Below, one piece after another: positions 5,574 through 17,252 of a stretch of DNA of 17,252 nt. Both the position numbers and the translations under genes were made by a program. The notes under the pieces were generated by a model. It was given only the letters and a program-made list of their open reading frames with translations. It did not search any database and was not told the origin of the DNA. The DNA comes from a virus. The stretch lies in UHGV virus genome UHGV-0812067; one strand, given 5' to 3'. Positions within the stretch are counted from its first letter, which is position 1. The number at the start of each line of letters is the position of its first letter.

Positions 5574-6536
5574 ATGCATCGTATAGACACGAAAACCGCG
5601 CAGAAGGATAAGTTCGGCGCGGGTAAGAACGGTTTTACCCGTGGTAACCCCCAGACCGGCACACCTGCCACCGATCTGGATGATGACTACTTTGACATGT
5701 TGCAGGAAGAACTTTGTAGCGTGGTGGAGGCCTCCGGTGCCAGCCTGGAGAAAGGGCGGCATGACCAGCTGCTTACCGCACTTCGTGCGCTGCTGTTAAG
5801 CCGCAAGAATCCGTTTGGCGATATCAAATCGGACGGCACGGTGGAAACGGCTCTCGAAAACCTTGGTTTGGGAGATGCCAACGGATATGTGGGCCGAAAG
5901 GTTGCGGAAAAATGGATAACGACATCTGGGACATATACGCCTACACCGGGAACAAAAAAAATCAGGGTAACGATAATTGGCGGAGGCGGCGGCGGGGGCA
6001 GTGGGCAAACAAACTCTGCTGGATACGTATCTGCCGGGTCTGGTGGAGGTGCCGGTGGTGTGGCTCGTAAAACAATTGACGTTACCAGTGTTTCATCAGT
6101 GTCCGTAACCATCGGTTCAGGCGGTAATCCAGGTGTCTTCTCTTCAAATCAGCCTGGTGATGGTGGTACCACAAGTTTTGGCTCCTACATGACAGCTGGC
6201 GGGGGTGGCCGAGGAAATAACTGTGGCTCGGTAGCATTCGGTGTTACTCAGTTAATTGCGAACGGTGGCGGCGGGGTTGGTTCAGGAGGTGATATCAACA
6301 CCATCGGCGGCTCTGGCGGCCCGGCGATAATTCTGGGACAGGGGTACACCAGCGGCGGCGGTGGCAACTCAATAGTAGCTGGAGGTGGACAGCCTATTGC
6401 AACAACGTCATCAATGAGTGGAATTGATGGCTCATATGGTTCTGGTGGGTCAGGCGCTTACATTCTGGCCAGCGGTAGTGAAAAAAATGGCGGACGTGGT
6501 GGTGATGGCGTTTGTATCGTTGAGGAGTATGCATAA
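5574..6536 (+). CDS. tail fibre protein, expressed form in this orientation (constant N-terminus + glycine-rich variable C-terminus)
   Basis: ATG at 5574 with GGAG (5563-5566). N-terminus [40 protein letters not shown]... is the conserved phage tail-fibre N-terminal domain. From about residue 98 the protein is extremely Gly/Ser-rich. The inversion crossover site lies inside the gene at 5851-5876. Confidence 0.85.
5851..5876. repeat. invertase crossover site, left (gix/cix/pix/hix-like, 12-2-12 layout)
   Basis: ctctcgaaaacc tt ggtttgggagat: two half-sites resembling the invertase half-site consensus (..TC..AAACC) around a central TT. The 11 bp ttggtttggga (5863-5873) is the exact reverse complement of 7677-7687. 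Confidence 0.7.
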
Positions 6537-6943
6537 TGAATAACATTTATGCTGTTGTTGAAAATGGCGTGGTGATCAACATCGTCGTCTGGGATGGGAA
6601 ATCGGAATGGCAACCGGTAACTGGGGAGGCTGTTTCTTGTTCTGCTCAGGTTGGTATCGGCTGGTTGTATGATGGAAGTAATTTCACCCAGCCACCAACA
6701 CCCGAGCAGACTCCAGAAGAATTAGCAGCGGCAAACATGGCTAAAGCTGCATCTGAGTATGAACGTGCCAGCGTAGTCATTGTAGCGCTAAATGAGCAGA
6801 TCGAAGACGAGGACTACGCAGGGACTACGGAAGAGGCCGTGAAATCAGAATTGGCCGCATGGACTGACTATCGTAAACAGCTTCGCGCTTACATTAAGGC
6901 CGGGGATGGCAGCCAGACACTACCATCCTTTGTAATGATTTAA
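6536..6943 (+). CDS. tail fibre assembly/chaperone-like protein for the current fibre form
   Basis: ATG overlaps the fibre stop (TAATG at 6534-6538) with GAGGAG upstream (6522-6527). C-terminus ...AWTDYRKQLRAYIKA resembles the Tfa C-terminal W-x-x-YR motif. The N-terminal part is not classic Tfa. Confidence 0.55.
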   Translation: MNNIYAVVENGVVINIVVWDGKSEWQPVTGEAVSCSAQVGIGWLYDGSNFTQPPTPEQTPEELAAANMAKAASEYERASVVIVALNEQIEDEDYAGTTEEAVKSELAAWTDYRKQLRAYIKAGDGSQTLPSFVMI

Positions 6944-7323
6944 ACTGGTCGTGTAGGCCACTCTATATCGGGAGCCGTGCTGGTATCAGTTCGCATCACG
7001 GCAACCCGATAATCTTCCCACGAGGTTAATCTAGCAGCTTCTTCATCAGTCGCTATTCCTGCGGTTACTGCATATTGAAGAGGTGATATTGCAAAAGTTG
7101 CTGCCGCCAGCAGCTCTGCTTTTTTCTGATTTGCAATCGCTACTTGCTGATCATGAGTCAGTGGCGCAGGGTCGCTCAGTTCGGGAAAACCACTTTCGTT
7201 TGCAATAATTACCTTTCCTCCCGCCTGCCCAATCACCAATTCTGACCAGTAGTCGTCGGTAATCTCCACCTGGCTATCACTCATCCGCCCAACCGTAAAT
7301 CCAATCTCTGTGGAATAAAACAT
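6940..7323 (-). CDS. tail fibre assembly protein (Tfa), alternative-orientation copy
   Basis: C-terminus ...ATDEEAARLTSWEDYRVAVMRTDTSTAPDIEWPTRPV matches the conserved Tfa C-terminal motif. Its stop codon overlaps the convergent + strand stop within TTTAAA (6940-6943). Confidence 0.8.
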   Translation of the reverse strand: MFYSTEIGFTVGRMSDSQVEITDDYWSELVIGQAGGKVIIANESGFPELSDPAPLTHDQQVAIANQKKAELLAAATFAISPLQYAVTAGIATDEEAARLTSWEDYRVAVMRTDTSTAPDIEWPTRPV

Positions 7324-7685
7324 TACGCACTCCCCATAGCCATATATTTAAAAGAAAAAGATCCGTTCAGATTTGCCCCTGCGGCATCCTTTCCGTAAAT
7401 TGTCACAACCGAACCTGATTCAGGAATGGCGGCATAACTAACAACGCCTGAGCCAATATCAGTCGGGATAAAAGTAAAACCAGTGCTGGGGTAAGCCAAT
7501 GGAAGAGTAAAGCTCAGTACGCCGTTAACAAAATTTCCAGATCCACTGCCCTCCATTATTCTACGGTTTCCTGCAATCACTATTGAAGTAAATACGTTTG
7601 AAGCGCCAGCGTATGTGAAGTTTGACATGTCTGGAATTTGACCAGTTCCTGTACCCACATCTTTTTTGGCTGCTGTTCCCAAACC
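7323..7685 (-). CDS. silent alternative tail-fibre C-terminal segment (Sv'-like), lacks its own N-terminus in this orientation
   Basis: Minus-strand frame is open from the stop at 7692-7694 through the crossover site to TAA at 7323-7325. It reads ...KVGLGTAAKKDVGTGTGQ..., with GLG encoded by the same ggtttggga as NLGLGD in the + fibre, in the same frame. The TTG 'start' in the ORF track is probably not a real start. Confidence 0.65.
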   Translation of the reverse strand, partial: GLGTAAKKDVGTGTGQIPDMSNFTYAGASNVFTSIVIAGNRRIMEGSGSGNFVNGVLSFTLPLAYPSTGFTFIPTDIGSGVVSYAAIPESGSVVTIYGKDAAGANLNGSFSFKYMAMGSA

Positions 7686-7699
7686 AACCTTTCAAATAT
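7674..7699. repeat. invertase crossover site, right
   Basis: tgttcccaaacc aa cctttcaaatat: the left half-site matches the half-site consensus well, the right half is degenerate. It carries the 11-bp inverted repeat tcccaaaccaa (7677-7687). Confidence 0.65.
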
Positions 7700-7726
7700 T
7701 TTTCTGAATCAGGTGATATTTCGCCT

Positions 7727-7753
7727 CTTCTCCTGTTTTTACAACAGGAGAAG
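7727..7753 (+). promoter_or_regulatory. hairpin sequestering the invertase Shine-Dalgarno
   Basis: cttctcctgt (7727-7736) and acaggagaag (7744-7753) form a perfect 10-bp inverted repeat with loop ttttaca. The right arm contains AGGAG (7746-7750), the RBS for the ATG at 7759. Confidence 0.4.
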
Positions 7754-7758
7754 CACTC

Positions 7759-8322
7759 ATGATTTACGGGTATGTTCGTGTATCAACAAATCATCAGGAT
7801 ACAGAGTTGCAACGTCTTGCACTTGAGTCAGCTGGCTGTGAGCGAATTTATGAAGAATATGCCAGTGGCAGAACAGCTAATCGCCCTGTGTTAAAGGAAT
7901 TAATTACGGTGATGAAAAGTGGAGATGAGTTGATTGTCTGGAAGTTAGATCGGATAGGGAGAAATGTGCTGCATGCGCTATTGATGTTTCAAAATCTGCA
8001 CGAAAAAGGTGTTAATTTTCGGAGTATTACAGATGGCGTAGACCTGAAAACAGCAAGTGGTCGCTATAATTTCCGTAATATTCTTTCTGCTGCGCAGTAT
8101 GAATCTGATTTGAATAGCGAGCGAACTTTAGCTGGTTTGGCTATTGCCAGATCCAAAGGCCGGATTGGTGGGCGTAGACCGAAGTTTAGCGACGAGCAGT
8201 GGCAACAGATGGGAGCGCTCATAGCGGCAGGGAAATCACGGCGTTATGTTGCACGTATCTATAACGTTGGGCTATCAACCCTATATAAACGATTTCCTGT
8301 TACTGGCATTCAAACGAAATAA
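7759..8322 (+). CDS. serine DNA invertase (Gin/Cin/Pin/Hin family resolvase-type recombinase)
   Basis: MIYGYVRVSTNHQDTELQ... contains the catalytic Ser motif (YVRVS), VWKLDRIGR, GRIGGRRPK and a C-terminal HTH ...GLSTLYKRFP. It is 187 aa and sits adjacent to the invertible segment. Confidence 0.9.
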   Translation: MIYGYVRVSTNHQDTELQRLALESAGCERIYEEYASGRTANRPVLKELITVMKSGDELIVWKLDRIGRNVLHALLMFQNLHEKGVNFRSITDGVDLKTASGRYNFRNILSAAQYESDLNSERTLAGLAIARSKGRIGGRRPKFSDEQWQQMGALIAAGKSRRYVARIYNVGLSTLYKRFPVTGIQTK

Positions 8323-10319: not shown

Positions 10320-10892
10320 ATGTTTTGCGAAGAAAAAGTAGCTCAAATGGCTGCATACCTACTTCTTAAGAGAGGTGGGCGCATGGCATATCTGAAATTG
10401 ATGAAGCTGCTCTATCTGTCTAACCGCCAGTCGATTTTGAAGCATGGCAGGATGATCGGCGAAGATAGCCTTTACTCTATGAAATTTGGACCAGTCATGT
10501 CGAATACGCTGAACTTGATTCGCGGTAAGGCTGAAGGCATTGGTGACTACTGGTACAACTTGATAGAGACGAACGGGCATAATGTATCGTTGCGTTCAGA
10601 TCCGAGGGAAATGGATGCAGACGAGGTCTTTGATGAATTGAGTCGTGCAGATATCCGGATTTTAGATGAAATCTATTCTCGGTATGGGCATATGAACCGA
10701 TTTGATCTCGCAAATATGACGCATTTAGAAAGCGTTTGTCCAGAGTGGCACGATCCTGGCAATTCTCGTAAGCCTATAGACCTGAAAGAAATGCTGATCA
10801 GTGAGGGTAAAAGCGAGGATGAGGCTAATCGCATAATTGGCAAAATGGAAGAATCTCAGAAACTTAAGGAATTTTCTTTGCAATTATCATGA
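10320..10892 (+). CDS. Panacea-domain (DUF4065, PanA/SocA/GepA-like) protein, putative antitoxin or sensor component
   Basis: ATG at 10320 with GAGG (10308-10311, 8-nt spacer). Residues about 20-70 (...AYLKLMKLLYLSNRQSILKHGRMIGEDSLYSMKFGPVMSNT...) fit the Panacea signature (KLqKLLYL ... w/y-GPV). Coding DNA is low-GC relative to flanking phage genes. Confidence 0.75.
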   Translation: MFCEEKVAQMAAYLLLKRGGRMAYLKLMKLLYLSNRQSILKHGRMIGEDSLYSMKFGPVMSNTLNLIRGKAEGIGDYWYNLIETNGHNVSLRSDPREMDADEVFDELSRADIRILDEIYSRYGHMNRFDLANMTHLESVCPEWHDPGNSRKPIDLKEMLISEGKSEDEANRIIGKMEESQKLKEFSLQLS

Positions 10893-11308
10893 CGGATTAT
10901 CAGCCATACAGGAAAGGAACTGTGCTTGCCCCAACTGGACCATGCAATCATCTTCATGTGATTTGTAATGATCCTGTTTATTACCCCGTTAACGATTGTT
11001 ATTGTGTTTTAGTTGTTAATATTTCTAGTATCAAGGATGGTGTCCCCCACGATCCGTCTTGCGTCTTGAATTCTGGTGATCATCGCTTTATCAAGCATCC
11101 AAGTTATGTTGTTTACGCTGAAGCTATAATTTGGCGAGTGGATAACATGGTTAGAAAGCAGCGATCGGGTGAGATTTCTGTTCATGATGATATGCCAGAA
11201 GCTACATTCAATAGAATTCTGGACGGTTTTGATATCTCTGATGAAGTTACGCCAAAGAACCTTAAATTTAAAAATAAATATTGCGTATCATCTATTGATG
11301 ATGAGTAA
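10889..11308 (+). CDS. hypothetical 139-aa protein translationally coupled to the Panacea-domain gene, candidate toxin/effector
   Basis: ATGA overlap at 10889-10892 with the upstream stop. Protein MTDYQPYRKGTVLAPTGPCNHLHVICNDPVYYPVNDCYC... has Cys/His-rich motifs and I recognise no family. Lowest GC in the window. Confidence 0.65.
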   Translation: MTDYQPYRKGTVLAPTGPCNHLHVICNDPVYYPVNDCYCVLVVNISSIKDGVPHDPSCVLNSGDHRFIKHPSYVVYAEAIIWRVDNMVRKQRSGEISVHDDMPEATFNRILDGFDISDEVTPKNLKFKNKYCVSSIDDE

Positions 11309-11896: not shown

Positions 11897-12469
11897 TTAC
11901 AGGTCGCTGCTGGTGGCCGGAATCAACTTCTGCCAGATCGCGGACACGTATTTTGCTTGATGTCGCGCATCGGCCAGTGCGTTATGTGCAACCCCATCGA
12001 ATGGCATATCTCGCTTTGGATCGAAACCCACCACTCTGCCTAATGTGACGATGGTTCTGACGTCGTGATCGTTCCAAAATTGCCACGGGCAAACCTGGCC
12101 GGTGCGCTCATATGCGCCGCGCAATATAACGTTGTCGAAAGTAGCTCCATTGCCCCAAACTTTTAAATATTTGGGGTTATCAGAATGCCGATTAATGAAA
12201 TGGCTCAGTTCAGATAGGGCAGACGATATCGGCATCGCATCATCAACACAGATTGCTGATCGTGCTTCTGAGCTTTGTCTTAACCACCACAGAATAGTGT
12301 CACCATCCGGCACCGCTCCCTGCTCCATAGCGCTTTCAAGGTTAACGGCGGTGTAAAACTCCTGACCCAGTTCACCGCTTTGCGGATCGAAGAACACGGC
12401 ACCAATGGAGACGATAGGGGCATTCGGTCTTTTGCCCATAGACTCAAGGTCGATCATTAAATTGTTCAC
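11897..12469 (-). CDS. DnaQ-like 3'-5' exonuclease (DEDDh family)
   Basis: Motif I MIDLESMG, central FDN and C-terminal H-x4-D (VAHNALADA). GTG at 12469 has AGGAG 10 nt upstream; an alternative ATG is at 12457. Confidence 0.75.
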   Translation of the reverse strand: MNNLMIDLESMGKRPNAPIVSIGAVFFDPQSGELGQEFYTAVNLESAMEQGAVPDGDTILWWLRQSSEARSAICVDDAMPISSALSELSHFINRHSDNPKYLKVWGNGATFDNVILRGAYERTGQVCPWQFWNDHDVRTIVTLGRVVGFDPKRDMPFDGVAHNALADARHQAKYVSAIWQKLIPATSSDL

Positions 12470-14310: not shown

Positions 14311-15228
14311 TTATCGCTTGGCTTCGCCGCCGAGAGAGGTTGTTAATCCGTTAATGAGAGAGATAAGCTCGCCGGTCATCAGAACAAAGTCAGCGTCGAA
14401 CCGCTGAGCCGCATCCTCACGGTCGATATCGTCGTTTTGTTCTGTAATCTCATTAGAGAACTTAAGGCGTTTGATGCTGCCGTCATCGCAAAGAACGAAC
14501 TGAATGCGCTGTTGCCAGTCGATAGACAGCTTTGTAACTACTTTGCCAGCTTCCAGATGCACATGAATTTCGTCACTGACCAGAGTCTGTTTTTTAAAGC
14601 GTCCAATACCGCCATCTTCAAGAATAGCTTTCAGTTCGGCTTCATCACCCAGGCCAAAGCCAGCAGGCGCACTACCGGAACGAACCCATTCGGTCATAGT
14701 TAGTTCGATCGGCGTTTCCATAGTCAGCGGTACCACCGGGAGAGAACCGAGAGTTTTACGAAGCAGGGCCAGTGAGTCTTCGGCACGTTTAGCGCTGGCT
14801 GCATCAACCATGATCAGACCGTCGGTGACGTTGATCCACAAACTAACAGTCGAGTTTTTGGAGAACGCCCGAGGAAGCAGGGAGTGCAACACTTCATCAC
14901 GCAGCGAATCTTTCTCAGTTTTTTTGAGGCGACGCCCCTGATCGGATTCCAGACGCGACACACGCTTGCGCAGTTCTTCAGCAATGACAGGAGATGGCAG
15001 TATTTTTTCTTCCCGGCGAATAACCAACAACACTTGATTATTGACAGTGTGATGCAAGCGATCTGACAGCTGACCAAGTGGTGATACCCAACCGGTTTTT
15101 GCCATATCCTGGCTACCGCATGGAGTGAAGCGAAATAGTTCAAGCTGCTGTTCCAGCTCTTCCTGGTTGATGGTGAAATCGCGACTAATGCGATACACCA
15201 ACATATTTTTGAAAAACGGATTGTTCAT
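14311..15228 (-). CDS. rdgC: RdgC-family recombination-associated protein, phage-encoded homologue
   Basis: 305 aa, [18 protein letters not shown]...[19 protein letters not shown]...KILPSPVI...[22 protein letters not shown]...LGSLPVVPL...RLKF..., collinear with E. coli RdgC along its whole length. Confidence 0.9.
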
Positions 15229-15693
15229 TCTCGGTTCCTCAACGCCTCTGCACCGGCGCTAAAAAGTTAGTTTCTCCATACACAACAGAGAAGGGCACCT
15301 GCATTGGTCGGCGGCTTGCAGAGACCGCTTTCTTTTTGCCCGGGTGGATTGGGTTATGAGCCCGTCGTCCGGTGATGCTCTTCTCTGTTTTGTAAAAAGG
15401 ACGGTACCAGCCGGAAGCAAGGGTACAAACTGGTACCGCCAGGACTACACACAGCATAAAGTTGTGGTGCCGGGTGCCTCCCGGTGCCTGGCGAAGGTTG
15501 CACACCAGGCGGGTGGGTATCCACAGAAGGTCGACTGTCAGCCTCAACCTTAACCCGCGTGCGCTGAGCCGCATTCACCACAACGCTAAGGATTCTCTCT
15601 GGTTGAAAATACTTAGCTGTTATGTGCCTGTCTTTTCACCACTTCAGGCTCGGTGGTATCCTTTTAAGCCCGTATACATAAAAGGAAAATCAA

Positions 15694-15939
15694 ATGACTT
15701 TTGATGAAAAAGAACTTGATAATGCAATTAATAAAATCATCGTAACGTCGCTCTTTTCCTGTCTCAGCGACACTCAGCAGAAACAGTTCTACGAATCGGC
15801 TTTCAACATGATCGAGCGTTGTTGTTTCTGCGATGCCGACGAGTTACCTGAAAAAATCAGGAAACAGTTGGCTGATGCTCTTCGAGTGCGACTTTCTGAC
15901 CAATTTTCTGAAATGTGCTCTCCGAATTTGGACAAATAG
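15694..15939 (+). CDS. hypothetical 81-aa protein
   Basis: ATG at 15694 with AAGGA 7 nt upstream. Sequence is protein-like and acidic/helical. It overlaps the 3' end of a convergent minus-strand ORF. Confidence 0.45.
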   Translation: MTFDEKELDNAINKIIVTSLFSCLSDTQQKQFYESAFNMIERCCFCDADELPEKIRKQLADALRVRLSDQFSEMCSPNLDK

Positions 15940-16132
15940 AAAAAGGCCATTTCCATTCAGGGTCTGATGGAAATACTTCAGCCTGTTCCAAAGCACGGCG
16001 TAAAGAGAATACAACTCCAGCCATAATCTGATGTTTCCCATTGGTCCAGCTATCGCTGCTCTGATCTACAGGAGCGGCTATGTCGTATGACCAAACGACT
16101 TCACCACTATTGTTTAAAATCTGGACTTTCAT
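15857..16132 (-). CDS. hypothetical 91-aa ORF, first ORF downstream of the putative leftward early promoter
   Basis: ATG at 16132 with GGAGG 12 nt upstream (long spacer). The C-terminal third overlaps the + ORF and contains a hairpin (15949-15974), so the true extent is uncertain. Confidence 0.3.
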   Translation of the reverse strand: MKVQILNNSGEVVWSYDIAAPVDQSSDSWTNGKHQIMAGVVFSLRRALEQAEVFPSDPEWKWPFSICPNSESTFQKIGQKVALEEHQPTVS

Positions 16133-16249
16133 TTTGTTCTTTAACCTCCAGATACGGGCGTTTAATTGCCCCGCCGAACAGCTCTTTTCCGCAATAGCTG
16201 CAATGTCTTTCGCGCATCAGCCTGCGCATTCACCACAACTCTAAAAACA

Positions 16250-16303
16250 AATGTAGGACATCCAACATGTGAGTGTCAAGAGTTTATGTTGGTTATCCTA
16301 CAT
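16250..16303 (-). promoter_or_regulatory. putative leftward early promoter (PL-like) with two 18-bp operators
   Basis: On the minus strand: TTGACA (complement of 16274-16279), 18-bp spacer, TACATT (complement of 16250-16255). Operator atgtaggacatccaacat (16251-16268) overlaps the spacer and -10; a second operator atgttggttatcctacat (16286-16303) lies upstream. Confidence 0.6.
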
Positions 16304-16318
16304 AAAAAGATAGGCTCA

Positions 16319-16346
16319 TAAAAAAACCGGGGATACCCCGGTTTTG
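16319..16346 (-). terminator. rho-independent terminator downstream of the repressor gene (bidirectional shape)
   Basis: ccgggg-ata-ccccgg stem (16327-16341), flanked by an A7 run (16320-16326, a U-tract on the minus strand) and TTTT (16342-16345) on the plus strand. Confidence 0.8.
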
Positions 16347-16365
16347 CGATAGTGAGGAAGATGTG

Positions 16366-17019
16366 TCAAAAATCCATTATTACTTGTTTGACAAGACCAA
16401 CTATTCTGCAGTTCTCACCGCATTCAATAGTTTTATAGTTAGGATTTAGTGGGACGAGATACCTGTTCGGCCAGTCCTCAACAAATTTTTTGAGTGTCGC
16501 TTCTTGCCCACCATTGATATGGGCAACAACGATTTTTCCGTTAATACACTCTGTATCAATAATATCTGGCTCTACGATAACGATAGAACCTTCTGGTATC
16601 GATGGTGAGCCGAGGGGATTGGTCATTGAATCACCACGGACCCGTAGTGCAAATGCCATTTCTGATACAAGGGCGGTAGTATAAACCCACTCTTCAGCAT
16701 CTTCTTTCCTGACACCAGGCTCCGTCATTGTCCATGAACCCGCCTGAACCCACGAGATGAGGGGGACTTTTTTAACTGCGAATATTTCAGGTTTTAGATT
16801 TATCTTTGGTTCAGGCGAGCCTTTTCCGCTAACAAGCCACAGAGGATCGCATTTAAGTGCGTTGGCTAGGGCTTGAAGGTTGGCTCCATTTGGTTGGTAG
16901 TCGTCCTTTTCCCATCCAGTAACCGTGACACGGTTCACACCAGTCAAATCAGCCAGTGCTTGTTGTGTCAGGTTCAGTTCTTTTCGCCTTTGGCGAATAC
17001 GATCACTCATGTTCATCAT
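16366..17019 (-). CDS. CI-like phage repressor (N-terminal HTH + C-terminal LexA/S24-type autocleavage domain)
   Basis: 217 aa. N-terminal HTH (RIRQRRKELNLTQQALADLTGVNRVTVTGWEKD); C-terminal S24 peptidase features (...ALRVRGDSMTNP... with a downstream Lys). No strong SD, as is common for repressor genes. Confidence 0.9.
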   Translation of the reverse strand: MMNMSDRIRQRRKELNLTQQALADLTGVNRVTVTGWEKDDYQPNGANLQALANALKCDPLWLVSGKGSPEPKINLKPEIFAVKKVPLISWVQAGSWTMTEPGVRKEDAEEWVYTTALVSEMAFALRVRGDSMTNPLGSPSIPEGSIVIVEPDIIDTECINGKIVVAHINGGQEATLKKFVEDWPNRYLVPLNPNYKTIECGENCRIVGLVKQVIMDF

Positions 17020-17083
17020 GTAGGCAATCCTACCACATGCCCATGTAGGATTCTTGACATTGGTATGTTGGATATCCTACATT
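17018..17083 (+). promoter_or_regulatory. rightward operator/promoter region (OR/PR-like) between the repressor and Cro-like genes
   Basis: TTGACA (17054-17059), 18-bp spacer, TACATT (17078-17083). Operator atgttggatatcctacat (17065-17082) is 17/18 identical to the left operator. A related site atgtaggcaatcctacca (17018-17035) overlaps the repressor start codon, and there is a half-site atgtaggat (17043-17051). Confidence 0.65.
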
Positions 17084-17114
17084 TCTGCTTAACGTAATTT
17101 AACGGGAGACAGAA

Positions 17115-17252
17115 ATGCGGAAATCCGACGTGATTAATTATTTCGGCGGAGTTTGTAAAACCGCCGAAGCCCTAGGTATTAAGCATCCGTCTGTTTCAGA
17201 GTGGCCTGAGATTATTCCTGAAGGCCGAGCGTACCAGTTAGAAAAAATTACT
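17115..17252 (+). CDS. Cro-like small HTH regulator (3'-truncated by window edge)
   Basis: ATG at 17115 with GGGAG 6 nt upstream. Hand translation MRKSDVINYFGGVCKTAEALGIKHPSVSEWPEIIPEGRAYQLEKIT... resembles Cro/YdaS-type HTH proteins. It is divergent from the repressor gene. Confidence 0.6.
   Translation, partial: MRKSDVINYFGGVCKTAEALGIKHPSVSEWPEIIPEGRAYQLEKIT

What the first reader, a model, noticed from the sequence alone, without database searches (positions are those of the whole stretch)
16250..17117. Compact immunity region: repressor flanked by near-identical promoter-operator units on both sides
Both sides of the repressor gene carry TTGACA-N18-TACATT promoters pointing away from it, each overlapped by an 18-bp palindromic operator (atgttggatatcctacat on the right, atgttggatgtcctacat on the left when read on the minus strand, 17/18 identical). 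Additional operators sit upstream on each side, and one overlaps the repressor start codon, suggesting autoregulation. A strong bidirectional terminator lies between the repressor 3' end and the left promoter. The whole PL-cI-PR unit fits in under 900 bp, giving a directly testable operator consensus ATGT(A/T)GG-N2-CC(A/T)ACAT.
Basis: seen in the sequence. Interest (0 to 1): 0.5.

Follow-up and report, generated by a model that had tools for sequence, protein, structure and literature searches.

The report
Prophage lysis-lysogeny switch, P22/lambda type
This is an ordinary but not yet experimentally described lysis-lysogeny switch of an E. coli prophage: a lambda/P22-type repressor gene flanked by two outward promoters that are covered by five copies of an 18-bp palindromic binding site, and the same cassette also sits in some Shiga-toxin phages.

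Summary
Three perfect and two degenerate copies of ATGTWGG-N4-CCWACAT lie at 16251-16303 and 17018-17082 (4 hits at up to 2 mismatches against 0.2 expected). Two TTGACA-N18-TACATT promoters point away from a 217-aa repressor gene. A hairpin plus T7 follows the repressor gene.

The repressor has an HTH_3 domain and an S24 peptidase domain. It is 44% identical to P22 C2, and its C-terminal domain matches lambda cI, with Ala93-Gly94, Ser131 and Lys177 in place. The divergent gene belongs to the P22_Cro family.

In relatives with 76-92% identical repressors, the half-sites, -35, -10 and site spacings are kept. The central 4 bp vary, the terminator stem covaries, and homology ends right after the PL -10.

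Site spacing matches P22 immC: OL1-OL2 35 bp, OR3-OR2 25 bp, OR2-OR1 22 against 23 bp. There is no OL3, as in 933W.

- The consensus spacer is N4, not N2.
- OR2 is only half a site.
- The terminator matters in one direction, insulating the co-directional PL operon from repressor transcription.

The cassette is 99-100% identical in SfV-like myophages and Stx1/Stx2c phages and occurs in 140 of 5426 E. coli genomes. I found no paper describing these operators. Verdict: a new member of a known kind, of low interest.

The parts
16250..16255 (-). PL -10 hexamer TACATT; lies inside the outer half of OL1
   Evidence: Invariant in relatives.
16251..16268 (.). OL1, 18-bp operator ATGTAGGACATCCAACAT, a perfect match to ATGTWGG-N4-CCWACAT
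   Evidence: The half-sites are conserved in 80 related loci. The central G at position 10 (minus-strand reading) was not seen in any of those 80 loci.
16274..16279 (-). PL -35 hexamer TTGACA, between OL1 and OL2
   Evidence: Invariant in relatives.
16286..16303 (.). OL2, ATGTTGGTTATCCTACAT, a perfect match; its centre is 35 bp from the OL1 centre
   Evidence: The 35-bp distance is kept in all relatives and equals P22 OL1-OL2.
16320..16345 (-). Intrinsic terminator of the repressor transcript: AAAACCGGGG-UAU-CCCCGGUUUU followed by UUU
   Evidence: Fold gives -17 kcal/mol, z = -2.9. The stem changes in a compensatory way in relatives: ccgggg/ccccgg, ccgggc/gcccgg, ccgagc/gctcgg, ccggat/atccgg.
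16366..17019 (-). Repressor gene, 217 aa, HTH_3 plus Peptidase_S24; predicted cleavage site Ala93-Gly94, Ser131/Lys177 dyad
   Evidence: PGAP calls the same ORF a 'LexA family protein', WP_000981537.1.
17018..17035 (.). OR3, ATGTAGGCAATCCTACCA (2 mismatches); overlaps the first two bases of the repressor start codon and contains the candidate PRM -10
   Evidence: Nearly invariant in relatives, including the 60-64% identical mEp390 and YeP1 repressor loci.
17027..17032 (-). Candidate PRM -10, TAGGAT. It predicts a start near 17021-17019 and so a near-leaderless repressor mRNA (inferred).
   Evidence: It has the same register inside OR3 as TAAGAT in P22. There the record annotates the PRM promoter and an RM transcript start 4 nt before the c2 ATG.
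17043..17060 (.). OR2-like site ATGTAGGATTCTTGACAT: one consensus half, while the other half is the PR -35
   Evidence: The block is conserved in most relatives while its flanks vary. The consensus half is changed in the 76-80% group and in L064.
17054..17059 (+). PR -35 hexamer TTGACA
   Evidence: Invariant in relatives.
17065..17082 (.). OR1, ATGTTGGATATCCTACAT, a perfect match; covers the PR spacer and most of the -10
   Evidence: Identical in all 73 loci where it could be scored.
17078..17083 (+). PR -10 hexamer TACATT
17115..17252 (+). cro-like gene (first 46 codons; cut by the window end), preceded by GGGAGA at 17104-17109
   Evidence: P22_Cro family, 1.2e-16. phrog_409, transcription regulation. 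The full gene encodes 65 aa in identical cassettes.

Best explanation
This is the immunity region, the lysis-lysogeny switch, of an SfV-like temperate myophage of E. coli. It is built like the switches of P22 and lambda but has its own operator specificity.

How it most likely works:
1. In the lysogen, dimers of the 217-aa repressor bind the 18-bp operators. These have contacted half-sites ATGTWGG and a non-contacted central 4 bp.
2. At OL1 and OR1 the bound repressor covers the spacer and -10 of PL and PR. OL2, and the half-site OR2 that includes the PR -35, probably add cooperative binding. Together these shut off both early operons.
3. The repressor gene is transcribed leftward from a weak PRM. 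Its -10 (TAGGAT) lies inside OR3 and its start is at or just before the ATG. High repressor levels that fill the weaker OR3 therefore shut off repressor synthesis.
4. The repressor gene and the PL operon run in the same direction, so the hairpin-T7 terminator after the repressor gene stops PRM transcripts from reading past OL/PL into the early-left genes.
5. After DNA damage, RecA* stimulates self-cleavage at Ala93-Gly94 by the Ser131/Lys177 dyad. PL and PR then fire, and the P22_Cro-family protein made from PR binds the same sites and keeps PRM off.

Shown here: the sequence elements, their statistics, the protein family assignments and the evolutionary conservation. Inferred: binding, order of site occupancy, cooperativity, start sites and cleavage.
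For: Operators and promoters in the window:
- Four operator hits against 0.2 expected, and none elsewhere in the window.
- In the full 35-kb genome of a phage carrying the same cassette, the only other hit is a single 2-mismatch match inside a lysis gene.
- Identical TTGACA-18-TACATT promoters face outward.

Proteins:
- The repressor matches HTH_3 and Peptidase_S24. It aligns with lambda cI over residues 9-210 with the AG, S and K positions aligned, and with the P22 C2 N-terminal domain.
- It is 44% identical to P22 C2 and 45% to the phage 21 repressor.
- Cro matches the P22_Cro family.

Phylogenetic footprint in repressor loci of 76-92% identity:
- Half-sites, -35, -10, the 35-bp OL spacing and the 47/48-bp OR1-OR3 spacing are kept.
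- The central 4 bp and the flanks vary, the terminator stem covaries, and similarity stops right after the PL -10.
- mEp390 and YeP1 (60-64% identity) carry closely related half-sites and the same OR3.

Comparison with P22:
- P22 sites are spaced 35 (OL1-OL2), 25 (OR3-OR2) and 23 bp (OR2-OR1), against 35, 25 and 22 bp here.
- The P22 PRM -10 and RM start are annotated inside and next to OR3, in the same register.
- In P22 repressor-operator complexes, positions 2-7 and 12-17 are contacted and 8-11 are not (PMC4267663). This is the pattern of conservation seen here.
- P22R Asn46, which organises the central minor groove, corresponds to Asn44 here (sequence).

Function in related phages: the cassette is 99.5-99.8% identical in deposited phage genomes (vB_EcoM-720R4, SKA5, Lys8385Vzw, Stx2c phages). 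Lys8385Vzw is described as induced from its host (PMC7946995), so the cassette belongs to at least one phage that has been induced.
Against: There is no experimental evidence for this cassette.
- No paper in the searchable library contains any of the operator strings or the protein accessions.
- OR2 is only half a site, and its consensus half is lost in the most diverged relatives. Cooperative OR1-OR2 binding and PRM activation are therefore uncertain.
- The proposed PRM has a poor -35 (AAGAAT).
- AGGA lies 8 nt before the ATG at 17019, so an upstream start with a leader cannot be excluded.
- The window ends inside cro, so a cII/PRE establishment pathway cannot be examined.
Confidence: 0.85

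Rival explanations
1. The parts are the same but the logic differs. The switch works without pairwise cooperativity, as reported for the Stx phage 933W. Regulation would then rest on the intrinsic affinities of two OL and three OR sites, not on lambda/P22-style cooperative filling of O1 and O2.
For: There is no OL3, as in 933W, whose repressor is reported not to bind cooperatively (PMC3317979). OR2 is half degenerate and is not conserved in the most distant relatives. The cassette occurs in Stx phages.
Against: The C-terminal domain aligns well with that of lambda cI, which mediates cooperativity. The OL1-OL2 and OR spacings are those of P22 and are strictly conserved. Strict spacing is what face-of-helix constraints between bound dimers would produce.
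Confidence: 0.2
2. The palindromes are not repressor operators. The left and right units look alike only because one promoter was copied from the other by duplication or gene conversion, and the extra copies are chance or bind another protein, such as Cro alone.
For: PL and PR share tcTTGACA and 22 of the 23 bases from the operator through the -10 (they differ only at the central operator base; sequence). That is compatible with copying.
Against: OL2 and OR3 lie outside the promoter hexamers yet keep the same half-sites. Across relatives the half-sites stay while the central 4 bp and the 5 bp between -35 and operator change. This is the signature of a dimeric HTH protein, not of promoter copying. 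The only other HTH proteins encoded next to the sites are the repressor and Cro.
Confidence: 0.04
3. The cassette in this window is a fossil in a defective prophage and no longer works as a switch.
For: The window does not show the whole prophage. The element directly downstream of PL is a truncated copy of a longer RNA element. At least one genome with the same cassette has it fused to a baseplate-gene fragment.
Against: The repressor ORF is intact and 100% identical to that of deposited phage genomes. All five sites and both promoters are intact. The window carries intact-looking tail, integrase and early genes of the SfV type.
Confidence: 0.1

Closest known systems
Salmonella phage P22 immC region (PL/OL - c2 - OR/PR - cro)
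   Same: - The repressor has the same two-domain build and is 44% identical. Cro belongs to the P22_Cro family.
- Operators are 18 bp: 7-bp contacted halves around 4 non-contacted bases.
- Site spacings match: OL1-OL2 35 bp, OR3-OR2 25 bp, OR2-OR1 22 against 23 bp.
- The PL -10 lies in the outer half of OL1 and the PL -35 between OL1 and OL2.
- OR3 abuts the repressor ATG and holds the PRM -10 in the same register.
- The overall size is about 820-835 bp.
   Different: - The half-site is ATGTWGG here and ATTTAAG in P22. The recognition helix reads VNRVTVTG here and VSNVAISQ in P22.
- There are two OL sites instead of three. A canonical hairpin-T7 terminator takes the place of OL3.
- PR has the lambda register here, with OR1 over the spacer and -10 and OR2 over the -35. 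In P22, OR2 lies in the PR spacer and OR1 sits over the start.
Phage lambda immunity region (cI, OR1-3, OL1-3, PRM, cro)
   Same: - The C-terminal domain matches at 7e-25, with Ala-Gly, Ser and Lys aligned.
- PL and PR diverge from the repressor gene. OR is tripartite, with O1 over the spacer and -10 and O2 at the -35.
- The repressor gene and the PL operon are co-directional and need a terminator between them.
- The repressor mRNA is leaderless or nearly so (inferred here).
   Different: - Lambda operators are 17 bp with different half-sites, and its N-terminal domain is not the closest match.
- Lambda carries rexA-rexB between cI and PL, which makes the region about 2.4 kb.
- Lambda has OL3.
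- Lambda Cro belongs to a different fold family from P22_Cro.
Stx2 phage 933W switch
   Same: It is a lambdoid switch with three OR sites but no OL3 (PMC3317979). The cassette studied here also occurs in Stx-converting phages.
   Different: This cassette was not tested for similarity to the 933W repressor, and the operator sequences differ. Lack of cooperativity is documented for 933W only.
Immunity regions of mEp390 (E. coli) and YeP1 (Yersinia)
   Same: The repressors are 60-64% identical, with almost the same recognition helix (VNRVTVTG and VSRVTVTG). The layout is the same, OR3 is the same, and the half-sites are related: ATGTAAG, TAGTAGG, ATGTCAG.
   Different: Several half-site positions differ, so cross-immunity is uncertain. 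As far as I could find, neither has been studied experimentally.

Membership tests
Lambda cI / P22 C2-type phage repressor (HTH + S24 self-cleaving domain) | N-terminal Cro/CI-type helix-turn-helix domain | tested here: met
   HTH_3 1.1e-15, residues 8-62. P22 C2 N-terminal domain structures match at 4e-14.
Lambda cI / P22 C2-type phage repressor (HTH + S24 self-cleaving domain) | C-terminal S24 peptidase domain with a Ser/Lys dyad | tested here: met
   Peptidase_S24 3.7e-25. Ser131 aligns with lambda Ser149 and Lys177 with lambda Lys192.
Lambda cI / P22 C2-type phage repressor (HTH + S24 self-cleaving domain) | Ala-Gly cleavage site in the linker | tested here: met
   VQAGSW (Ala93-Gly94) aligns with lambda VQAGMF (Ala111-Gly112).
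Lambda cI / P22 C2-type phage repressor (HTH + S24 self-cleaving domain) | RecA-stimulated self-cleavage and SOS induction | not testable with these tools
   This needs biochemistry or induction experiments.
Lambdoid immunity region (OL/PL - repressor - OR/PR - cro) | Divergent early promoters flanking the repressor gene, with a cro-type gene first in the rightward operon | tested here: met
   Promoter-like sites on both sides. The P22_Cro family gene starts at 17115.
Lambdoid immunity region (OL/PL - repressor - OR/PR - cro) | Several copies of one palindromic operator overlapping both promoters | tested here: met
   Five sites: 4 at up to 2 mismatches against 0.2 expected. They are conserved in relatives.
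Lambdoid immunity region (OL/PL - repressor - OR/PR - cro) | Tripartite OR whose promoter-distal site overlaps the maintenance promoter of the repressor gene | tested here: inconclusive
   Three sites have P22-like spacing, and OR3 abuts the ATG and holds a TAGGAT -10 candidate. However, OR2 is a half-site and no start site is known.
Lambdoid immunity region (OL/PL - repressor - OR/PR - cro) | Repressor and Cro bind these operators | not testable with these tools
   This needs EMSA or footprinting.
P22 immunity type (homoimmune with P22) | Operators with the P22 half-site ATTTAAG and a C2-identical recognition helix | tested here: not met
   The half-site here is ATGTWGG and the recognition helix is VNRVTVTG against VSNVAISQ in P22. 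Overall identity is 44%. It works like P22 immC but is a different specificity.

The most novel reading that the evidence does not exclude
The cassette defines an immunity group that has not been studied. Its switch mixes P22-format operators, a lambda-register PR and a two-site OL backed by a terminator. Exactly the same cassette sits in SfV-like myophages and in Stx1/Stx2c-converting phages. One repressor could therefore give cross-immunity and coupled SOS induction between harmless prophages and toxin phages in the same cell, and so influence Shiga-toxin release.
Probability: 0.3. Interest if true: 0.35.

Novelty: new member of a known kind. Interest (0 to 1): 0.22.

Why it matters
It gives a ready operator consensus (ATGTWGG-N4-CCWACAT), promoter positions and predicted cleavage residues for an immunity type found in about 2.6% of complete E. 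coli genomes (140 of 5426). Carriers include Stx1- and Stx2c-converting phages. One published genome paper lists CI and Cro as absent from a phage (Lys8385Vzw) that carries this very cassette.

The graded series formed by this group, mEp390, YeP1 and P22 could serve to study how recognition helices and half-sites co-evolve in the P22 C2 family.

None of this changes the accepted picture of lambdoid switches.

Tried and rejected
- **Third OL site:** none found in 16150-16366, even at 5 mismatches.
- **Extra operators elsewhere:** none in the window. In the full vB_EcoM-720R4 genome there is only one 2-mismatch hit, inside a lysis gene, which is compatible with chance.
- **N/nut-type antitermination downstream of PL:** the first PL gene (91 aa) has no Pfam match and falls in a PHROG of unknown function. 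It is not arginine-rich. The leader fold is not better than shuffles, z = -1.1. I do not claim a nut site.
- **Rfam on 15000-17252:** nothing in the switch itself. The 'Termite-leu' hit (E = 0.12) is just OL2 plus the terminator hairpin and was rejected.
- **Terminator scan:** the pattern tool missed the terminator. My guess, not tested, is that it extends the stem into the A/T pairs and so uses up the T-run. Folding and covariation show the terminator instead.
- **Literature:** the operator strings, the protein accessions and the RNA-element strings returned no paper describing this switch. The Tyler et al. 2004 paper on 933W operators is not held.
- **Crossover sites of the tail-fibre inversion segment:** no inverted repeat of 18 bp or more was found.

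Full report
**What is in the sequence**

The region 16250-17117 holds a 654-nt ORF on the minus strand (16366-17019, 217 aa) between two intergenic stretches.

- *Operator sites.* A scan for ATGTWGGNNNNCCWACAT at up to 2 mismatches finds four sites in the whole 17.2-kb window, all here: 16251-16268, 16286-16303, 17018-17035 and 17065-17082. The expectation from shuffles is 0.20, and none of 200 shuffles reaches four. Relaxing the threshold adds one more site, 17043-17060, with a perfect left half and a right half that is the PR -35. No further site appears on the left side even at five mismatches.
- *Promoters.* The promoter scan finds TTGACA-18-TACATT on the minus strand (16279..16250) and on the plus strand (17054..17083). 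These are the two best hits in the region.
- *Shared unit.* Both promoter units read tcTTGACA-N5-ATGTTGGAT(A/G)TCCTACATTT, so the -10 hexamer is part of the outer operator half.
Four bases separate GG from CC.

**The proteins**

The ORF product matches HTH_3 (residues 8-62, 1e-15) and Peptidase_S24 (residues 86-210, 4e-25).

Among solved structures, it aligns with intact lambda repressor over residues 9-210 (7e-25) and with the P22 C2 N-terminal domain (4e-14). In that alignment:
- VQAGSW (Ala93-Gly94) lies on the lambda cleavage site Ala111-Gly112.
- Ser131 lies on lambda Ser149.
- Lys177 lies on lambda Lys192.

By tblastn the nearest studied repressors are P22 C2 (44%) and the phage 21 repressor (45%). 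Closer but unstudied relatives are YeP1 (64%) and mEp390 (60%).

The gene that starts at 17115 behind GGGAGA is a P22_Cro family member (1e-16). It is cut by the window end and encodes 65 aa in identical cassettes.

**Comparative evidence**

A scan of viral contigs returned 80 loci. Sixty-two carry an identical repressor, and 18 carry repressors of 76-92% identity.

In those diverged loci:
- The N-terminal domain, including the recognition helix VNRVTVTGWE, is almost unchanged.
- The linker and parts of the C-terminal domain differ.

In the intergenic DNA:
- The operator half-sites, both -35 hexamers and both -10 hexamers stay the same. So do the OL1-OL2 distance (35 bp) and the OR1-OR3 distance (47 or 48 bp).
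- The four central operator bases change freely (ATAT, ACTT, GTAT, ATAC, CTTT, TTTT, AAAG, ATTT...), as does everything between the sites.
- Similarity ends immediately after CCTACATT on the PL side, and each lineage continues with unrelated early-left sequence.

This is a clean phylogenetic footprint of a dimeric HTH protein. It also shows that the cassette is exchanged as a module.

The pattern agrees with what is known for the P22 repressor. There, positions 2-7 and 12-17 of the 18-bp site are contacted and positions 8-11 are read indirectly (PMC4267663). P22R Asn46, which sits at the mouth of the central minor groove, is conserved here as Asn44.

mEp390 and YeP1 have the same layout, the same OR3 and related half-sites.

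**The terminator**

On the minus strand, 20 nt after the stop codon, lies AAAACCGGGG-UAU-CCCCGGUUUU-UUU, with -17 kcal/mol and z = -2.9. The stem sequence differs in relatives but always pairs: ccgggg/ccccgg, ccgggc/gcccgg, ccgagc/gctcgg, ccggat/atccgg.

The repressor gene and the PL operon are both on the minus strand. Without a terminator, maintenance transcription would run through OL/PL into the early-left genes. That is the likely function, and it corresponds to the orientation with the long T-run.

The plus-strand version ends in TTTTG and nothing in the window needs it. 'Bidirectional' is therefore not supported as a functional statement.

**Comparison with P22 and lambda**

The annotated P22 record, scanned with the P22 consensus, compares with this window as follows.

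| Spacing (centre to centre) | P22 | This window |
|---|---|---|
| OL1-OL2 | 35 bp | 35 bp |
| OR3-OR2 | 25 bp | 25 bp |
| OR2-OR1 | 23 bp | 22 bp |

- *PL.* In both, the PL -10 lies in the outer half of OL1 and the -35 lies between OL1 and OL2.
- *PRM.* In P22 the record places the PRM -10 (TAAGAT) at positions 4-9 of OR3 and the RM transcript start 4 nt before the c2 ATG. Here the same positions of OR3 read TAGGAT, and the site ends on the first two bases of the ATG. This predicts a near-leaderless maintenance transcript and repression of PRM by OR3 occupancy. That step is inference by register, not evidence.
- *PR.* Unlike P22, PR here has the lambda register, with O1 over the spacer and -10 and O2 at the -35.
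- *OL3.* There is no OL3. 933W is a precedent for that among lambdoid phages (PMC3317979).
- *Size.* The size of the unit (834 bp) equals that of P22 (about 822 bp), so compactness is the norm once lambda's rexAB is set aside.

**Where the cassette occurs**

The 1.15 kb around the switch is 99.5-99.8% identical in:
- Escherichia phages vB_EcoM-720R4 and SKA5, which are SfV-like myophages;
- the Stx1 phage Lys8385Vzw;
- three Stx2c-converting phages.

It is present in 140 of 5426 complete E. coli genomes, where it is annotated only as 'LexA family protein' and 'Cro/CI family transcriptional regulator'.

The rest of the window is an SfV-type phage with Mu-like baseplate and tail genes, integrase and early-left genes. 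SfV itself matches up to 16134 and then has a different immunity region.

I found no paper with the operator sequences or the protein accessions. The genome paper on Lys8385Vzw lists CI and Cro as absent from that phage.

**Verdict**

This is a textbook-type lambdoid switch with a specificity that has not been characterised. It is a new member of a known kind, useful for annotation and for immunity typing of Stx and SfV-like phages, but not surprising.

**Outside the finding**

Directly downstream of PL (16154-16239, minus strand) lies the 5' part of a widespread phage element.
- It has a conserved 5' module, GUGGUGAAU plus the hairpin GCGCAGGCUGAUGCGC.
- A variable insert of 12-162 nt follows.
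- A conserved 3' module, the hairpin GCCGG-AGAUCAGCA-CCGGC plus CACCACA, closes it.
- The 3' hairpin stem covaries, and the two loops are complementary.

In this window the 3' module is missing, so the copy is truncated. A complete relative lies at 15392-15614 and matches Rfam STnc100 just below its threshold. STnc100 is a prophage-encoded sRNA related to PasD (bioRxiv 10.64898/2026.05.13.724894). This is recorded under things noticed in passing.

Noticed in passing
window 16154-16239 (minus strand, PL leader): This is a truncated copy of a widespread phage RNA-like element.
- 5' module: GUGGUGAAU plus hairpin GCGCAGGCUGAUGCGC, often preceded by a boxA-like GUGCUCUUUCC.
- Then a variable insert of 12-162 nt.
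- 3' module: hairpin GCCGG-AGAUCAGCA-CCGGC plus CACCACA. The stem shows compensatory changes, and the loop UCAG is complementary to the 5' loop CUGA.

It occurs in more than 120 IMG/VR contigs, in P1-like plasmids next to tRNA genes, in HK620 between qut and tQ, in what look like T1-like phages, in an Ackermannviridae phage, and in 844 of 5426 E. coli genomes.

It always lies on the transcribed strand and is unannotated in the E. coli genomes (some phage records call a hypothetical protein over it). No Rfam family reaches the gathering score, and no paper holds the strings. The window copy lacks the 3' module.
   Followed up: partly
window 15392-15614 (minus strand): A full-length match to Rfam STnc100 (RF02076) scores 43.1 bits, just under the gathering score of 47, with E = 2e-7. 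It lies in the PL operon, in a stretch where the only ORF is an unlikely 111-aa one. It has the same architecture as the element above (UGGUGAAU-hairpin ... hairpin-CACCAC) and shares GTGGTGAATGCG with it. It is 99% identical in SfV, SfII and SfIV and 87% in ST64B. STnc100 is described as a prophage sRNA related to PasD.
   Followed up: partly
window 5574-8322: The layout suggests a tail-fibre host-range inversion module of the Mu Gin / e14 Pin type (the comparison to Gin and Pin is from memory, not tested).
- Tail-fibre gene (5574-6536) and an assembly gene (6536-6943) on the plus strand.
- An oppositely oriented tail-fibre assembly gene (6940-7323, Caudo_TAP) and a fibre C-terminal fragment (7323-7682).
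- Then a serine invertase (7759-8322, Resolvase plus HTH_7).

No inverted repeat of 18 bp or more was found for the crossover sites.
   Followed up: partly
window 10320-11308: A SocA/Panacea-domain protein (10320-10892, 2e-19) is followed by an overlapping 139-aa ORF (10889-11308). The pair lies on the plus strand, between the integrase gene and the leftward early genes. It may be a toxin-antitoxin or defence cargo pair.
   Followed up: no
window 16260 (central base of OL1): OL1 of this window has G at operator position 10 in the minus-strand reading (ATGTTGGATGTCCTACAT). None of the 80 related loci has this variant, and 70 of them have ATAT in the centre. For the P22 repressor, G/C in the non-contacted centre lowers affinity (PMC4267663), so this PL operator may be slightly weaker.
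   Followed up: no
Lys8385Vzw (MT225100.1) 32475-33573; paper PMC7946995: The published description of Stx1 phage Lys8385Vzw says CI and Cro are absent. The phage nevertheless carries this cassette at 99.7% identity, with a 100% identical repressor annotated only as a LexA family repressor.
   Followed up: yes
window 11897-12469 and 14311-15228 (minus strand): The early-left operon carries an Rv2179c-like 3'-5' exoribonuclease domain protein (2e-74) and an RdgC homologue (8e-116). In vB_EcoM-720R4 a 573-nt early-left gene of the same length as the first ORF is labelled exodeoxyribonuclease VIII; I did not check that the two are the same gene.
   Followed up: no
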